From: Candidatus Latescibacterota bacterium
GTDB lineage: Bacteria; Latescibacterota; UBA2968; UBA8231
Length of the DNA: 64,000 nt
Direction of reading: 5' to 3'
Assembly (NCBI GenBank): GCA_965200315.1
Contig: OZ241362.1
Span: 384,001 to 448,000, forward strand
Under the pieces are notes generated by a model. The model ran no database searches. It was not told the origin of the DNA and was given only the letters and a program-made list of their open reading frames with translations. Numbering within the stretch: position 1 is the first letter of the stretch; each line of letters opens with the position of its first letter. Positions 5,792-10,276 of the stretch are shown one piece after another. The position numbers and the translations under genes are program-made.

Positions 5792-7264
5792 TCAGATTAG
5801 CCCTAGCCACCGCCAATAGAGTAGGTTGAGCGGACAGAGCAGGACCAAGGATGCCGTGGAAATAAGGCCTTGGGCGAGGATGAGTTGCTGCATGGAGAGT
5901 TGCCGAAAACCATAGGCCACCATGAAAGGTGCCGACTGGTAGGGCAAGAAGGCCAAAGTAGTTGCCATCGCCACGCTGAATGCCGCCGGCAATGGCGCGA
6001 TCCCGTGCTGGGCCCCTAACTCCATTAGGGGGATGGTTGCCACGCCGGCTACAGCGGCGATATCCATCAGGAAATCAAGGGGGAGGGCGACCAAACAAAG
6101 CGACAGGTGCTTGCCCAGCCAGCCGTATTCCTCCAACGCCAGATACTCACTGCAAGCCGCGATGAACAGATGATTAAACCCGGCCGCGTCCAAGGCGTGA
6201 CCCAACGTGAGCAGAGCGACAATGTAGGCTATGAGCGCAAAACGCACCTTGACTAAGTCGCCCAAACGGAGCAGTCCCCAGCGCGGCCAAAGGAACAACG
6301 CCACTAGGCCCAAGCCAATATAGACGGGTTGGATGTGGTGCAAGAAGTCCGTGGCCCACAAGCCCACGCCCGTAAGGAGAATGTACAGGGCGCACCGCTG
6401 GACGCGGGTCAGCGGTGCGCTATTAGAAGAAGGGGTCCGCTGGATAACATGGCCGTCGAGGTGGCGGCCGAAAAGCATCCAGATCACACCGAGCGATACC
6501 AACGTGCGCAAAAAGCCGATGACCGGAAACATCCAATACAGCCAATTGGCCCAAAATATGGGTGCGCCTTGGATTTTTTCGTATTGGCCGGCCAAGACCA
6601 AGTTGGGCACAGAGCCGGTCAAAAGTCCACAACCGCCAAAATACGTGCTGCAAAGCAGAGAGAGCAAAACCGCGGCCTTGAGATGCGGCGATGGACGAAC
6701 GTGCAGGCGCTCGACGAGGGCGATGCCAATCGGCATTAGGAACAGGACGCGGATTACCCCGGACGGGATCAGGAAAGCCATCCCCAGCCCGATCAGGTGC
6801 AATTGGCAAAGTAGGAAAAAGGGGCGTTGCGACAGACGGGACTGAAGCCAAAAAGCCAGCGTATCTCCGAGGCCCGTTTTGGCTACCCCCAAGCTCAGGG
6901 CCATGCCGGCGAGGACGAGCCAGACAGTCTTAGAGACGAAAGGGGCTAGGCTCTGCTCGAAACTCAGTAGGCCAACGGCCGGGATCAGGGCGAGCACTCC
7001 CGCCGAACTCAGGGCGATAGGTATGGGTTCAGTAGTCCAAAAAAACAGGGCAAACAGGGCGATGCCAAGGGCGTTTTGCACGGGGCTAGGCAGTGCAGCA
7101 AAAGGAGCGGCAAAGCCCAAGAGGAGGGCCGCGATACCCAATAGCAAGCCCGCCCATTGTTTGGGCGCTAGCTTGGTCAGAGAGAGTCGGCGGGGCAAGG
7201 GACCTTGTGGGGCTTGAGGTGGAGCACAAAATAAAAAAGCCCCAGATTTTGGAAAGCGGCCCAA
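5792..7264 (-). CDS. SLC13/DASS family di/tricarboxylate or sulfate permease (start uncertain)
   Basis: FWTTEPIP, GLLTGSVPN and LPYQSAP motifs; many TM helices. Confidence 0.85.
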   Translation of the reverse strand: MGRFPKSGAFLFCAPPQAPQGPLPRRLSLTKLAPKQWAGLLLGIAALLLGFAAPFAALPSPVQNALGIALFALFFWTTEPIPIALSSAGVLALIPAVGLLSFEQSLAPFVSKTVWLVLAGMALSLGVAKTGLGDTLAFWLQSRLSQRPFFLLCQLHLIGLGMAFLIPSGVIRVLFLMPIGIALVERLHVRPSPHLKAAVLLSLLCSTYFGGCGLLTGSVPNLVLAGQYEKIQGAPIFWANWLYWMFPVIGFLRTLVSLGVIWMLFGRHLDGHVIQRTPSSNSAPLTRVQRCALYILLTGVGLWATDFLHHIQPVYIGLGLVALFLWPRWGLLRLGDLVKVRFALIAYIVALLTLGHALDAAGFNHLFIAACSEYLALEEYGWLGKHLSLCLVALPLDFLMDIAAVAGVATIPLMELGAQHGIAPLPAAFSVAMATTLAFLPYQSAPFMVAYGFRQLSMQQLILAQGLISTASLVLLCPLNLLYWRWLGLI

Positions 7265-7295
7265 GCCTATTATTTTTGCATAGAGGATACGTGCA

Positions 7296-7679
7296 GTGAG
7301 CTACTGCCAGCTAAAGCAGGTAGCTTCTAACGGAGCACGCATGAGTTGACTACCTCTACGTTACGCTCCGTAGGCCTGCACCGGGCCTGATGCTCAACCG
7401 AAGTTGAGAAACACAGTTACTCCGACCTGTGGTCGGAGACTTGGGTGGGACAACCTGCTGCCAGCGTTTGCAGCTTTGCAGCATCGCGACCGGCTCTTAC
7501 AGCTCTTACAGCCTTGCCGAACGCTCGCTGTAGGTTGACCACGCAACAGATGAGTCCACGTCGATTCATAGACAAAATCTATCGTAGATCGGCTATCGCT
7601 CCGGGCACTACGCGCCCATCGCTCAAGCCGGTCTCCATGCCCCTGTCAGCTAAAGCAAACAGTCCTCTGGAGACTTTTT
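7296..7679 (-). mobile_element. Non-autonomous IS200/IS605-family element (no tnpA or tnpB) with a TnpB reRNA/omegaRNA-like right end
   Basis: Both ends carry the same CAGCTAAAGCA hairpin core (7308-7318, 7647-7657). The minus-strand 3' end reads GGAGCGTAACGTAGAG...ATGCGTGCTCCG..AGAAGCTACCTGCTTTAGCTGGCAGTAGCTCAC. CCAT lies immediately 5' of the left end. Confidence 0.75.
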
Positions 7680-9113
7680 ATGGCTCAATTGAAAGCGATC
7701 CGCCTGCGCTTAGACAAGCCTTTGACCGGGCCGTACGACCGCCTTTTGGGCCGCCCTGGTCCCGAAGTCATCTCACTGGCAGCGGGCGAAACCATGGCGA
7801 TCATCCGCGGTGCGCGGCTACTAAAAGCCATGCCCTTGTGGGAAAGCACGGACGCGTGTTATTACTCCAAAAAGACGGCTCCTGGGTGGGCCGCGGAAAA
7901 TTTTAGAGATGTAGAGCAAGCCGAGCGTTGGGCAGAGAAAGGGCTGGTGAATTCGCTGGCTGTGCCCATAGGCTACTTCAAGCTGCCCAATGCCGCTTGG
8001 ATCGGCGCGCTGGCAGCCGAACTGACGCCGTGGACGGCCCAAGCCGTTGAAGCATGGCGGACAGGGATTAAGCGGGACATTTGGCTGACCGTACTGAGGG
8101 TATATGGCTGTGCGCCCGTGCAACCGAAATTTTTGCGGAAAACGGGCGCGGACCCGCTGCGCGTTAGGCCCTTTGAGATTGAGCAATTGCAGCCGGTCGT
8201 TTTAGAAAGAGATATCGAGCGGCGGATGGAACAGATACAAGAGGCTGTAGCACGGCATGCTCGCGGTGGCGGTACCCGTGTGGGCGCAAGCTACGACGGC
8301 CAGGCTTTCACTGCGGAGACTGGCTACAGTGCCGATGAGCTAAAGGGCTGGATTGACCAATTGCAGCGCAAGCAGCAGCTCATTCTATACGGCCCGCCCG
8401 GCACCGGCAAGACGTACTTGGCCAAGTGCTTGGCTCGTTATCTGGTGGATGGCGGCGGTTTCAGCGAACTCGTGCAATTCCACGCCTCGTACGCGTATGA
8501 GGATTTCGTCCAAGGAATTCGGCCGCAGGTCGTGGATGGCGCACTGCACTACGAATTGACCGCCGGGCACTTTCTGCGGTTTTGCGCCAAGGCGCGCCAA
8601 GCCGCAGAAAAGCCCTGCGTGCTGATCATCGACGAAATCAACCGCGCTAACCTCGCGCGCGTTTTTGGCGAGTTAATGTACCTGTTGGAATACCGCGATC
8701 GCCCGATCACGCTGGCCGCTGGCGGCTCCGAGTTTTCGCTCCCGGCCAACGTCTATCTCATCGGCACCATGAACACGGCCGACCGGTCGATCGCCTTGGT
8801 CGATCAAGCCATGCGGCGGCGATTCAGCTTTGTCCGCCTGCGCCCCAACTACCAGCTTTTGGCAAATTATCTCGAGAATAGGAGCTTACCGCCGGATAAA
8901 TTGGTCGCGCTACTAAAAGAAGTAAATCAATCCATTGGGGATGAGGACTGCGAACTGGGTATTTCTTTCTTCATGGTCGCCGATGTCGCAACGGCGCTGG
9001 CGCATATTTGGCAAGGCGAGGTCGAGCCGTATCTGGAGGAGGTGTTTTTCGATCGCCCGGACCAGATGGCGCGCTTTCGCTGGTCCAAAGTCGCCGAGCG
9101 TTTGCAGGATTAG
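7680..9113 (+). CDS. mcrB: McrB-family AAA+ GTPase with a non-canonical N-terminal domain
   Basis: GPPGTGKT, QFHASYAYEDFVQG, IIDEINRANL, GTMNTADRS, MRRRF. Confidence 0.92.
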   Translation: MAQLKAIRLRLDKPLTGPYDRLLGRPGPEVISLAAGETMAIIRGARLLKAMPLWESTDACYYSKKTAPGWAAENFRDVEQAERWAEKGLVNSLAVPIGYFKLPNAAWIGALAAELTPWTAQAVEAWRTGIKRDIWLTVLRVYGCAPVQPKFLRKTGADPLRVRPFEIEQLQPVVLERDIERRMEQIQEAVARHARGGGTRVGASYDGQAFTAETGYSADELKGWIDQLQRKQQLILYGPPGTGKTYLAKCLARYLVDGGGFSELVQFHASYAYEDFVQGIRPQVVDGALHYELTAGHFLRFCAKARQAAEKPCVLIIDEINRANLARVFGELMYLLEYRDRPITLAAGGSEFSLPANVYLIGTMNTADRSIALVDQAMRRRFSFVRLRPNYQLLANYLENRSLPPDKLVALLKEVNQSIGDEDCELGISFFMVADVATALAHIWQGEVEPYLEEVFFDRPDQMARFRWSKVAERLQD

Positions 9114-9115
9114 GC

Positions 9116-10276
9116 GTGCGACGCTACGCGCTGATCGAAGAGAAAGTAGCCGCGATTCCGGCGGCCGAGCTTGCGGTCGAACAGGCCCTACACCTGCACA
9201 CCCAATATGCAAAAGAGTTGGAGTTCGGCTTCCCTAGCCCGCTCAATGGCCAGTGTTATCAACTCAGATCGCGGGGGTATGTCGGCGTGGTGCCATTGGG
9301 CGCGGATGCCGCCTTGGAAATCAATCCCAAAATCCGCTGCTCACTGCTCATGTCCATGCTGGAGTACGCCTATCAGTTGCCCAAGGTAAGCGAATACAAG
9401 GCCCCAGCTACTATGGGGGATATTTACGAGTTTTGGGCCGAGGTACTCGCACGCAAAGTCTTGCAACGGGTGCGGCGCGGGCTGTTTTGGGATTACCAAA
9501 CCCGCGAAGGCCCCAGTCGGTGGGTGCGGGGGCGCATGTACCCCGAGCGCAGTGCCTTGGGCGTTCATCCCTACTGTCGGTTTGCCGAGCACACGCCCGA
9601 TATCATCGACAACCGCATCTTGGCCAACGCGCTGCATGGCCTGCGGCGCTTTGCCTTTCGCCGCGAAAGCGTTCAGCAAATGGTCGGTCGGGCTTGGTGG
9701 GCACTGAGCGAGCTAAATTACCGCCACATTCGCCCCGCCGATTGTCTCGGCGTAGTGTACCACCAACTAAACGAGGACTACCGACCGATGCATGCCCTGT
9801 GCTATCCCTTGCTCCAACAGCGCAGTCCGGCTTGGGGAGTAGGGGCCGAGGAAGGGCCGGCGTACTTGTTGCACATGCCGACCTTATTCGAGCGGTTTTG
9901 CACGGCGTTTATCGACCACAAGCTCAATCACAGGGTGGAACTAAAAGCCCAGTACCACACGCGACTCAAGGGAACAGAGCGGCTTTCCTTTCGCTTGGAC
10001 ATGGCCCTGTTTTCAGCGGCAACCGGGCAGCCGCTGGCGGTAGTTGATGCAAAATACAAGGCCGCTGGTCCCGTAGAAAGCGATGTGCAGCAGGTGGTTG
10101 CCTATGCGGTGCAACTAGGTACGCGCCGGGCCTTTTTGCTCTATCCCAGCCGCGATATAAGCGAGCAGTTCGAGGTCGGCCCGGTGGCCGTGCAAGCACT
10201 TGGGTACGATCTCGACGCCGAAGATCTAGAGGAAGCGGGACGGCGCGTGATTCGCAAAATAGAAAACAGCATATAA
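9116..10276 (+). CDS. mcrC: McrC-family PD-(D/E)xK nuclease subunit
   Basis: GTG 2 nt after the mcrB stop; YVGVV, INPKI, MPTLFERF, RLD...VVDAKYK, DVQQVVAY, LLYP. Confidence 0.88.
   Translation: MRRYALIEEKVAAIPAAELAVEQALHLHTQYAKELEFGFPSPLNGQCYQLRSRGYVGVVPLGADAALEINPKIRCSLLMSMLEYAYQLPKVSEYKAPATMGDIYEFWAEVLARKVLQRVRRGLFWDYQTREGPSRWVRGRMYPERSALGVHPYCRFAEHTPDIIDNRILANALHGLRRFAFRRESVQQMVGRAWWALSELNYRHIRPADCLGVVYHQLNEDYRPMHALCYPLLQQRSPAWGVGAEEGPAYLLHMPTLFERFCTAFIDHKLNHRVELKAQYHTRLKGTERLSFRLDMALFSAATGQPLAVVDAKYKAAGPVESDVQQVVAYAVQLGTRRAFLLYPSRDISEQFEVGPVAVQALGYDLDAEDLEEAGRRVIRKIENSI

What the first reader, a model, noticed from the sequence alone, without database searches (positions are those of the whole stretch)
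7281..7683. TnpB-less IS605-type element inserted between the SD and ATG of mcrB, supplying a replacement SD
Seen: 7296-7679 has matching CAGCTAAAGCA subterminal hairpins and no transposase or TnpB ORF. Its minus-strand 3' end resembles TnpB reRNA scaffolds and ends in TCAC. Removing it precisely gives GAGGA-TACGTGCA-ATGGCT, an SD 8 nt before the mcrB ATG. With the element in place, its end provides GGAG (7669-7672) 7 nt before the same ATG. The target motif on the element strand is CCAT, the reverse complement of ATGG. Established: IS200/IS605 elements insert 3' of a short motif without a target duplication, excise precisely, and use the right flank as the TnpB guide. Inference: this is a guide-RNA-only element that targets start codons and stays tolerated by donating an SD. 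Its predicted guide (TGCACGTATCCTCTAT...) would direct a trans-acting TnpB to the empty mcrB allele, and it may retune a defence operon.
Basis: partly seen in the sequence, partly recalled or inferred. Interest (0 to 1): 0.75.

Follow-up and report, generated by a model that had tools for sequence, protein, structure and literature searches.

The report
Gene-less IS605 remnant at mcrB start
A 384-base, gene-less relic of an IS200/IS605 transposon that still carries a guide-RNA-like fold sits exactly between the ribosome-binding site and the start codon of a restriction gene; it is a clean example of a known kind of element, and its family lands unusually often at start codons.

Summary
Window 7296-7679 is a 384-bp insertion with no target duplication. 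In 19 congeners the two flanks abut.

It is a non-autonomous IS200/IS605 derivative (PATE-like). Matching subterminal hairpins lie at both ends. It keeps the last 21 codons of tnpB. Its 109-nt 3' scaffold has strong covariation: 17 of 24 pairs show compensatory change, and 0 of 500 shuffles reach the observed score. Congeners carry tnpB-only and tnpA+tnpB parents with the same ends.

The target motif is CCAT in 21 of 21 tabulated borders. Eight of 20 independent insertions sit at probable start codons.

The host chromosome has no TnpB and no IS605-type TnpA, so the element is probably stranded there. The "replacement SD" GGAG exists but is predicted to pair in a hairpin followed by five U. Only 3 of the 8 start-codon insertions carry such a core.

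Guide-RNA-bearing PATEs are already in print, so this is a new member of a known kind. The start-codon bias is consistent with survivorship alone.

The parts
7296..7679 (-). 384-bp non-autonomous IS200/IS605-family element. Its top strand (LE to RE) is the window's minus strand.
   Evidence: Empty sites in congeners. Ends shared with tnpB- and tnpA+tnpB-bearing elements.
7680..7683 (-). Target motif (TAM) CCAT immediately 5' of the LE. It equals ATGG, the start codon plus first base of codon 2 of the McrB-like gene.
   Evidence: ATGG is retained in the empty sites. CCAT precedes the LE in 21 of 21 tabulated elements.
7643..7662 (-). LE subterminal hairpin (CTGT-loop GCTTTAGCTG-ACAG type).
   Evidence: The same loop occurs in the LE of relatives.
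7300..7324 (-). RE subterminal hairpin, followed by the terminal TCAC (7296-7299).
   Evidence: It is helix 4 of model R1.
7296..7404 (-). Omega-RNA-like 3' scaffold: three conserved helices plus the RE hairpin.
   Evidence: R1 match of 103.9 bits. 17 of 24 pairs have compensatory change and 94.9% of cells are paired. The window copy was in the seed alignment.
7327..7392 (-). Remnant of the last 21 codons plus stop of tnpB (HQARCRPTERNVEVVNSCVLR*).
   Evidence: My reading against the TnpB C-termini printed. Not scored by a tool.
7405..7560 (-). Non-coding internal module shared only with other gene-less copies (L002, L037, L069). It replaces the tnpB body.
   Evidence: Alignment A1. Genus search with the module. 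Sequences.
7276..7295 (-). Flank 3' of the RE, the would-be guide of an omega RNA. It includes the reverse complement of the native SD.
   Evidence: Position only. The role is inferred from the published IS605 mechanism (PMC10055086).
7283..7287 (+). Native SD GAGGA, now 392 nt from the ATG.
   Evidence: It lies 8 nt before the ATG in the empty sites. The organism has the canonical anti-SD and uses SD.
7630..7679 (+). Plus-strand hairpin made of the LE. GGUCUCC (7630-7636) pairs with GGAGAC (7669-7674), so the candidate SD GGAG 7669-7672 is inside the stem. U5 follows at 7675-7679.
   Evidence: RNA fold of -27 kcal/mol, z = -3.07, 0 of 200 shuffles as stable. Prediction only.
7680..9113 (+). 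McrB-like AAA_5 NTPase gene (477 aa).
   Evidence: PF07728 at 1.7e-22, covering 2-139 of 139 profile positions.
9008..10276 (+). McrC-like gene. The ORF as listed starts at a TTG; the true start is probably near the mcrB stop.
   Evidence: PF10117 at 7.1e-35, covering 2-318 of 318 profile positions.
5792..7264 (-). Divergent SLC13-type symporter gene. The element lies 31 nt upstream of its listed start and in the same direction.
   Evidence: PF00939 at 1.4e-28. ORF list.

Best explanation
Window 7296-7679 is a gene-less, non-autonomous derivative of an IS200/IS605-family insertion sequence, a PATE-like element. Its top strand is the window's minus strand.

How it got there:
- It inserted by the family's single-strand "peel-and-paste" route, 3' of the tetranucleotide CCAT and without a duplication. 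This step is inferred from the family mechanism.
- That CCAT is the reverse complement of the ATGG that starts the McrB-like gene. The element therefore landed exactly between the native SD (GAGGA) and the ATG. This is shown.

What it keeps and lacks:
- It keeps both subterminal hairpins, the last 21 codons of tnpB, and the structured 3' region that in full-length relatives overlaps the tnpB 3' end. That region is the position and form of a TnpB omega/reRNA scaffold.
- It lacks tnpA and tnpB. Its interior is a non-coding module shared with other gene-less copies in congeners, so it belongs to a lineage of elements mobilised in trans.

Its present state:
- In this genome no cognate TnpB or IS605 TnpA is found, so the copy is most likely stranded. 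It cannot excise, and any guide RNA it makes has no effector. This is inferred from absence.
- The McrB-like gene now has to be read through a leader of about 400 nt. The last 50 nt of that leader are predicted to fold into a hairpin that buries the only nearby SD-like GGAG and ends in U5. The effect on McrBC is more likely neutral to dampening than restorative. This is inferred and not shown.
For: Borders and lack of duplication:
- Abutting flanks in 19 congeners.
- 9 of 11 fetched loci read GAGGATA(C/T)GTGCA|ATGGC.

Family:
- A 1,334-bp relative (L032) with the same ends encodes a 387-aa TnpB: PF01385 3.1e-27, PF07282 5.7e-21, PF12323 1.1e-9.
- Six relatives carry a Y1 tnpA upstream of tnpB.
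- A decayed copy holds a Y1_Tnp fragment, 1.5e-6.

Target motif:
- CCAT precedes the LE in 21 of 21 tabulated elements.

RNA scaffold:
- 10 of 24 pairs are compensatory among the 7 seed sequences.
- On 23 copies, 94.9% of cells are paired, 17 of 24 pairs show two-sided change, 0 of 500 shuffles reach the score, and slid controls give 26-38% paired.
- The model finds matches at E<=0.01 in 17 of 31 genus genomes.

Gene-less lineage:
- The internal module is shared with L002, L037 and L069.

No effectors in the host chromosome:
- PF07282 gives one 48-aa remnant only.
- PF01385 gives nothing over the cut-off; best hit 12.9 bits.
- tblastn with the L032 TnpB gives a best hit of 38 aa at E = 0.001.
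- PF01797 gives one RAYT-like domain inside a methylase-like frame.

Population:
- No read joint skipping the element in one independent raw-read DNA run. Summed depth over the element was roughly 7-14x.
Against: - The assembly is a metagenome-assembled single contig (94.7% complete by marker genes). A TnpA or TnpB on an unassembled plasmid or in a co-resident strain cannot be excluded.
- The scaffold alignment was fitted to the model, which favours pairing. Helix 4 is also the DNA hairpin that the transposase needs, so its conservation says nothing about RNA.
- Transcription of the minus strand (the omega-RNA strand) is not shown. The two RNA-library contigs over the element are unstranded and could be plus-strand mcrB leader or carried-over DNA.
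- Whether the 109-nt scaffold is a complete, functional omega RNA is unknown.
- Both the mcrB and mcrC frames are intact with full-length Pfam matches. The genes have not visibly decayed, which fits continued expression as well as a recent insertion.
Confidence: 0.88

Rival explanations
1. The family has evolved to home to start codons (TAM CCAT = ATGG) and stays tolerated because its LE tip donates a replacement SD. Here it keeps McrB translated and perhaps retunes the defence operon.
For: - 8 of 20 independent insertions lie at probable start codons, against 1.4% of all CCAT sites in this genome. Two of them (ureF, hisD) sit exactly between the upstream gene's stop and the ATG.
- The LE tip reads GGAGAC plus 4-5 nt before the ATG in 6 of 21 elements, this copy included.
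- The organism has the canonical anti-SD. SD cores are five times enriched before first ATGs, 36% against 7%.
- An RNA-library contig runs from inside the element (7354) across the LE junction into mcrB.
Against: - If only non-disruptive sites survive, 12-29% of surviving insertions are expected at ATGG starts. P(>=8 of 20) is 0.002-0.2, depending on the assumed number of ATGG starts. The excess is not clearly beyond survivorship.
- Only 3 of the 8 start-codon insertions have an SD core in the LE tip.
- In this copy the GGAG is predicted to be base-paired in a stable hairpin followed by U5.
- One insertion (L046) sits inside a DNA-methylase gene, matching profile positions 162-217 of 221.
Confidence: 0.2
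2. The element is still active as a guide-RNA gene. Its omega RNA is used by a TnpB supplied in trans from an unassembled replicon, phage or co-resident strain. It cuts empty mcrB alleles so that the insertion is retained or spreads by recombination.
For: - The scaffold is intact and scores 103.9 bits, against 118 for the best full-length copy. The window copy was in the seed.
- By construction, the empty allele of congeners carries CCAT followed by the flank 3' of the RE.
- PATEs that encode omega RNAs to be used in trans are described (PMC10055086, discussion passage).
- Congeners with gene-less copies (G021, G042) also hold autonomous elements.
Against: - No TnpB domain was found in the 5.36-Mb chromosome by two Pfam models and a tblastn.
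- The only other copy in the genome is 66-72% identical and lacks an LE, so there was no recent activity.
- No empty-allele reads in the one raw-read run laid.
Confidence: 0.08
3. The insertion mainly turns McrBC down. It moves the native SD 384 nt away and places a terminator-like, SD-sequestering hairpin just before the ATG. It was kept because lower type IV restriction was tolerated or useful.
For: - Predicted hairpin 7630-7674 plus U5: -27 kcal/mol, z = -3.07.
- The native GAGGA is conserved 8 nt before the ATG in all 9 printed empty sites and is now distant.
- The allele appears fixed: five non-RNA runs hold all sampled words, and no empty joint was seen.
Against: - mcrB and mcrC remain intact.
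- An RNA-library contig bridges the hairpin into mcrB, so any termination is not complete, if that contig is plus-strand RNA.
Confidence: 0.3

Closest known systems
PATEs (palindrome-associated transposable elements): gene-less IS200/IS605 derivatives, including those in Geobacillus stearothermophilus said to 'often encode omega RNAs' used in trans (PMC10055086, passages read; original PATE paper PMC3119063 seen only in the search listing)
   Same: No protein gene. LE and RE hairpins of an IS200/IS605 family. No duplication. Retains the guide-RNA region. Needs TnpA and TnpB in trans.
   Different: Here the borders are proven by empty sites in 19 congeners. The interior is a shared non-coding module rather than a bare deletion. 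The host chromosome has no visible partner proteins. The insertion splits an SD from its start codon.
IS605/IS608 (Helicobacter pylori) and ISDra2 (Deinococcus radiodurans): Y1 TnpA plus TnpB elements (mechanism as summarised in PMC10055086; the motifs TTAC and TTGAT are recalled)
   Same: Subterminal hairpins. Insertion 3' of a short motif. Scarless excision. The omega RNA overlaps the tnpB 3' end and the RE. Relatives with tnpA-tnpB order are found in congeners.
   Different: The target motif is CCAT and the RE ends T(C/T)AC. This copy has lost both genes.
Non-autonomous repeat elements that alter expression of the gene they land beside, such as Correia elements or ERIC-type MITEs (recalled, no paper read)
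   Same: A small non-coding mobile repeat placed in a 5' leader. It may supply or mask expression signals.
   Different: Those are inverted-repeat elements with duplications. Here the chemistry is HUH single-strand transposition, and the SD-like motif is an accident of one LE subclade.

Membership tests
IS200/IS605 family (as a non-autonomous derivative) | Subterminal imperfect palindromes at both ends, alike in LE and RE, and no terminal inverted repeats | tested here: met
   Hairpins at 7643-7662 and 7300-7324 share the loop GCTTTAGCTG. The same holds in relatives.
IS200/IS605 family (as a non-autonomous derivative) | Insertion without target-site duplication, giving a scarless empty site | tested here: met
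   Empty sites ...GTGCA|ATGGC... in 9 of 11 printed loci. Flanks abut in 19 genomes.
IS200/IS605 family (as a non-autonomous derivative) | Insertion 3' of a fixed tetra- or pentanucleotide (TAM) that stays in the flank | tested here: met
   CCAT in 21 of 21 tabulated elements and in L073. Variants not tabulated: CTAT (L041), CCAC (L045), CAAT (L062). Four copies of a sister subfamily begin TTATCAGA.
IS200/IS605 family (as a non-autonomous derivative) | Relatives with the same ends encode a Y1 (HUH) TnpA and/or TnpB | tested here: met
   TnpB with three Pfam domains. tnpA frames with the HVH motif upstream of tnpB in 6 loci. A Y1_Tnp fragment.
IS200/IS605 family (as a non-autonomous derivative) | Actual excision or insertion by TnpA | not testable with these tools
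   No empty-site joint in one raw-read run. No cognate tnpA in the chromosome.
TnpB omega/reRNA | Conserved structured RNA overlapping the tnpB 3' end and the RE, with the guide taken from the flank 3' of the RE | tested here: inconclusive
   Position and covariation are met. No Rfam match at E<=1. Transcript, strand and 3' end are not shown; the RNA contigs are unstranded.
TnpB omega/reRNA | A cognate TnpB present to bind it | tested here: not met
   No TnpB in the host chromosome. TnpB is present in congeners.
McrBC type IV restriction system (the neighbouring genes) | An AAA+ (AAA_5) NTPase gene followed by a McrC-family gene | tested here: met
   PF07728 at 1.7e-22 and PF10117 at 7.1e-35. 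PADLOC gave only generic REase_II and IetA hits for the first protein and none for the second. Activity was not tested.

The most novel reading that the evidence does not exclude
The CCAT target motif of this IS605 clade is an evolved safe-harbour strategy. By reading the reverse complement of ATGG, the transposon lands immediately 5' of start codons, including stop|ATG junctions inside operons. There the ORF stays whole, and one LE subclade (GTCTCC tip) supplies GGAG at SD distance. Gene-less, guide-RNA-bearing descendants such as this one would then persist as 5'-leader remodelers of host genes, here a restriction system.
Probability: 0.12. Interest if true: 0.65.

Novelty: new member of a known kind. 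Interest (0 to 1): 0.45.

Why it matters
It gives an unusually clean natural example of a gene-less IS200/IS605 element that keeps a guide-RNA-like scaffold. Occupied and empty alleles can be compared across 20 species of one genus.

It also defines a TnpB/TnpA clade in uncultured Latescibacterota-labelled genomes whose target motif is CCAT.

Because CCAT mirrors ATGG, 40% of the surveyed insertions sit exactly at start codons. Simple reporter assays with occupied and empty alleles could therefore test how such insertions affect translation initiation and operon coupling. They could also test whether transposon target motifs are shaped by where insertions are harmless.

For TnpB tool-builders, the family offers a candidate TAM and a compact scaffold to test. 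For the host, it marks a possible natural down-tuning of McrBC.

Tried and rejected
- **Rfam**: no family matched at E<=1 in 6500-8500. No known riboswitch, intron or HEARO-type RNA was found.
- **Group I or group II intron, or IStron:** rejected for lack of any Rfam hit and because the ends are IS605-type.
- **Ordinary 5' UTR of mcrB:** rejected by the empty sites.
- **Promoter scan**: no sigma-70-like site in 6900-7900. The only terminator-like call lies inside mcrB on the minus strand. I drew nothing from this.
- **PADLOC**: only generic hits, so it does not sharpen the McrBC label.
- **Literature**: three searches with the terms given there. The listings showed no paper on an IS605 clade with a CCAT motif or a start-codon bias. 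This is a listing-level negative only.
  - PMC2775950 (passages) concerns IS605 stem-loops downstream of Borrelia lipoprotein genes and is not a precedent.
The extended data of PMC10055086 on PATEs may bear on how common guide-RNA-only copies are.
- **Crude gene calling for the null**: it picks the first start codon in each open frame and so undercounts true ATGG starts. For that reason I give a range (609-1,800 starts), not one figure.
- **The two C>T variants at 7336 and 7353**: I looked at them and judged them uninformative about selection on the fold.

**Rows dropped before the 21-element table:** L041, L045 and L062 (variant motifs); L040, L048, L049 and L050 (sister subfamily); L073 (decayed, has CCAT); L002 and L069 (no LE); L018 (remnant). 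G012a and G002a are the same orthologous insertion and count once, which gives n=20.
Full report
**Observation.**
The stretch 7281-7683 lies between a divergent SLC13-type symporter gene (5792-7264, minus) and an McrB-like AAA_5 gene (7680-9113). A McrC-family gene follows.
- A 15-nt direct repeat, CTGCCAGCTAAAGCA / CTGTCAGCTAAAGCA, sits at 7304-7318 and 7643-7657. Each copy is inside a hairpin.
- No ORF above 52 aa lies wholly inside 7296-7679.
- GGAG is at 7669-7672, 7 nt before the ATG at 7680. GAGGA is at 7283-7287.
- Rfam gives no match at E<=1.

**Borders.**
A search of 41 related genomes with window 6900-8100 matched 23 of them.
- In 19 same-genus genomes the left flank (to about 7298) and the right flank (from 7680) abut with a 1-3-base overlap of the two alignments. 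In G011 the overlap is 14 bases.
- Nine of the 11 loci fetched printed the junction ...GCATAGAGGATA(C/T)GTGCA|ATGGC.... My pattern did not match the other two.
- Among the 31 genus genomes only this one holds the element at this site.

**What it is.**
Read on the minus strand, the element runs CCAT | LE ... RE-TCAC | flank. Congeners hold longer elements with the same ends.
- L032 is 1,334 bp and encodes a 387-aa TnpB: PF12323, PF01385 and PF07282 at 1.1e-9, 3.1e-27 and 5.7e-21.
- Six loci (L061-L064, L067, L068) carry a Y1 tnpA frame directly upstream of tnpB.
- L034 is a 751-bp decayed copy with a Y1_Tnp fragment.
- The window copy keeps the last 21 codons and the stop of tnpB. This is my reading.
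- Upstream of that it carries a non-coding module shared with other gene-less copies: L002 in the same genome, L037 and L069.
- L039 is a 165-bp copy with the same LE region.

The window element is therefore one member of a lineage of non-autonomous, trans-mobilised IS200/IS605 derivatives. Record titles of the TnpB relatives label these genomes as Candidatus Latescibacterota MAGs; one relative is labelled Gemmatimonadota.

**Guide-RNA-like scaffold.**
- The last 105-110 nt of seven copies align at 75% mean identity. They fold into three helices plus the RE hairpin, and 10 of 24 pairs show compensatory change.
- A covariance model built from them (R1) finds matches at E<=0.01 in 17 of 31 genus genomes, 20 of them at E<1e-16.
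- On 23 copies aligned to the model, 94.9% of cells pair and 17 of 24 pairs show two-sided change. None of 500 shuffles reaches any of the five measures, and slid controls pair at 26-38%.

Caveats: the alignment is fitted to the model, the sequences are related, and helix 4 is also the DNA hairpin the transposase needs. In full-length copies helices 1-3 overlap the TnpB C-terminal codons, which is the usual place of a TnpB omega RNA. They remain paired in copies with no coding constraint.

**Target motif and start codons.**
- CCAT precedes the LE in 21 of 21 tabulated elements and in L073.
- Left out of the table: three copies with CTAT, CCAC or CAAT; four copies of a sister subfamily that begin TTATCAGA; and copies without an LE.
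- Of 20 independent sites, 8 have the junction ATG opening a long frame (142 to over 569 aa), with an in-frame stop 0-65 codons upstream in the inferred empty site, for the seven whose RE flank is known. For G001b the RE flank, and so the upstream stop, is unknown.
- In four of the relatives' copies Pfam matches start at or near the N-terminus, and McrB in the window is a fifth case by the empty sites:
  - DUF2231, profile positions 5-138 of 139;
  - HisD, from profile position 3;
  - UreF, profile positions 4-150 of 151;
  - a CarboxypepD_reg protein.
- A sixth, an LTA-synthase-like sulfatase, matches Pfam only from residue 240, after a membrane-like N-terminus.
- Two more have signal-peptide-like N-termini but no Pfam match.
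- In the ureF and hisD cases the upstream gene's stop codon touches the ATG.
- One insertion (L046) is inside a DNA-methylase gene.
- The other 11 face frames of 89 aa or less.

**Is that more than chance?**
- This genome has 42,904 CCAT sites on both strands. A crude gene call leaves 4,364 of them outside coding frames and finds 609 first-start ATGG codons, which is an undercount.
- Against all sites, start codons are 1.4%, so the enrichment is large.
- If only non-disruptive sites survive, the expected share is 12% (609 starts) to 29% (1,800 starts). P(>=8 of 20) then runs from 0.002 to 0.2.
- The bias is real, but survival of harmless insertions may explain it.

**The replacement SD.**
- The organism has the canonical anti-SD. 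SD cores occur before 36% of first ATGs and 7% of internal ATGs, so SD matters here.
- The LE tip gives GGAG at 6-7 nt spacing in only 6 of 21 elements, and in 3 of the 8 start-codon insertions.
- In this copy the plus-strand RNA 7615-7700 is predicted to fold at -27 kcal/mol (z = -3.07). GGAGAC pairs with GGUCUCC (7630-7636), and five U precede the ATG.
- SD donation is therefore possible but unsupported. A dampening effect is at least as likely.

**Partners.**
The 5.36-Mb single-contig assembly shows:
- one PF07282 hit, a 48-aa TnpB tail followed by a related RE hairpin;
- no PF01385 hit over the cut-off;
- no tblastn match to the L032 TnpB beyond 38 aa;
- one PF01797 hit, a RAYT-like domain inside a methylase-like frame.

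The only other copy of the element is 66-72% identical and lacks an LE. The element is most likely stranded in this genome.

**Reads.**
- Five non-RNA runs (two labelled DNA?, three of unrecorded kind) and two RNA-library runs hold most or all sampled words of 7000-8000.
- In one independent raw-read DNA run, the summed depth of both mate orientations over the element was roughly 7-14x. No joint skipping the element was listed.
- RNA-library contigs cover 7267-7687 (X7) and 7354 to beyond 8600 (X6).
- These contigs are unstranded and may contain DNA. They are compatible with read-through from the native mcrB promoter but prove nothing about strand or level.

**Comparison with what is known.**
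- Gene-less IS200/IS605 derivatives (PATEs) are described, as is the statement that they "often encode omega RNAs" that need a TnpB in trans (PMC10055086, passages).
- What is particular here: the proof of borders across many species, the CCAT motif and its start-codon consequence, the shared non-coding interior, and the absence of partner proteins.

**Verdict.**
The adaptive and functional claims (SD donation, start-codon homing, an active guide) are unproven and partly contradicted. The element is a new member of a known kind, of moderate interest.

Noticed in passing
G000:C1 about 705639-708869 (L019), outside the window: The genome's only Y1/IS200-like transposase domain (PF01797, 42 bits; RAYT-like, NHVHVLI motif) lies in frame inside an open frame of more than 1,077 aa. 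The rest of that frame looks like a DUF1156-type DNA methylase. The domain is flanked by near-repeated GARASR peptides.
   Followed up: partly
L033, L054/L066, L055/L065 and L057 (relatives): In several full-length copies the conserved TTTAG loop of the LE and/or RE hairpin is interrupted by an extra 20-35-nt palindrome. The LE and RE carry different palindromes. This looks like a nested mini-insertion or a loop expansion.
   Followed up: no
L038, L041, L042, L045, L046, L051 (relatives): A second TnpB clade (MKRVIQIKLLPT..., about 370-385 aa) has the same hairpin loop and the same CCAT motif, but its RE ends GGTTGAC. A third subfamily (L040, L048-L050) starts TTATCAGA.
   Followed up: partly
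L046 (G044:C1 about 353000-357000): An element of the second clade is inserted at an internal ATGG of an N6_N4 DNA-methylase gene. The frame stays open for 135 codons upstream across the inferred joint, so the gene is split.
   Followed up: partly
L041 (G006) and L061 (G044): Two different element types (a tnpB-only copy of the second clade, and a tnpA+tnpB copy) face near-identical flanks (MGSIVGQHQ... frame). Either the same target was used twice or the flank is itself repeated.
   Followed up: no
window 7445-7906, plus strand: A 153-aa GTG-started open frame begins inside the element and overlaps the mcrB 5' end in another frame. It is probably spurious and was not examined.
   Followed up: no
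G000:C1:73177-73336 (L018 1437-1599, minus): A 48-aa TnpB C-terminal remnant (zinc ribbon and RuvC-III region) is followed by an RE-like hairpin ending ATCAC. It is wedged between a TPR-repeat gene and a FG-GAP/ASPIC-like gene.
   Followed up: partly
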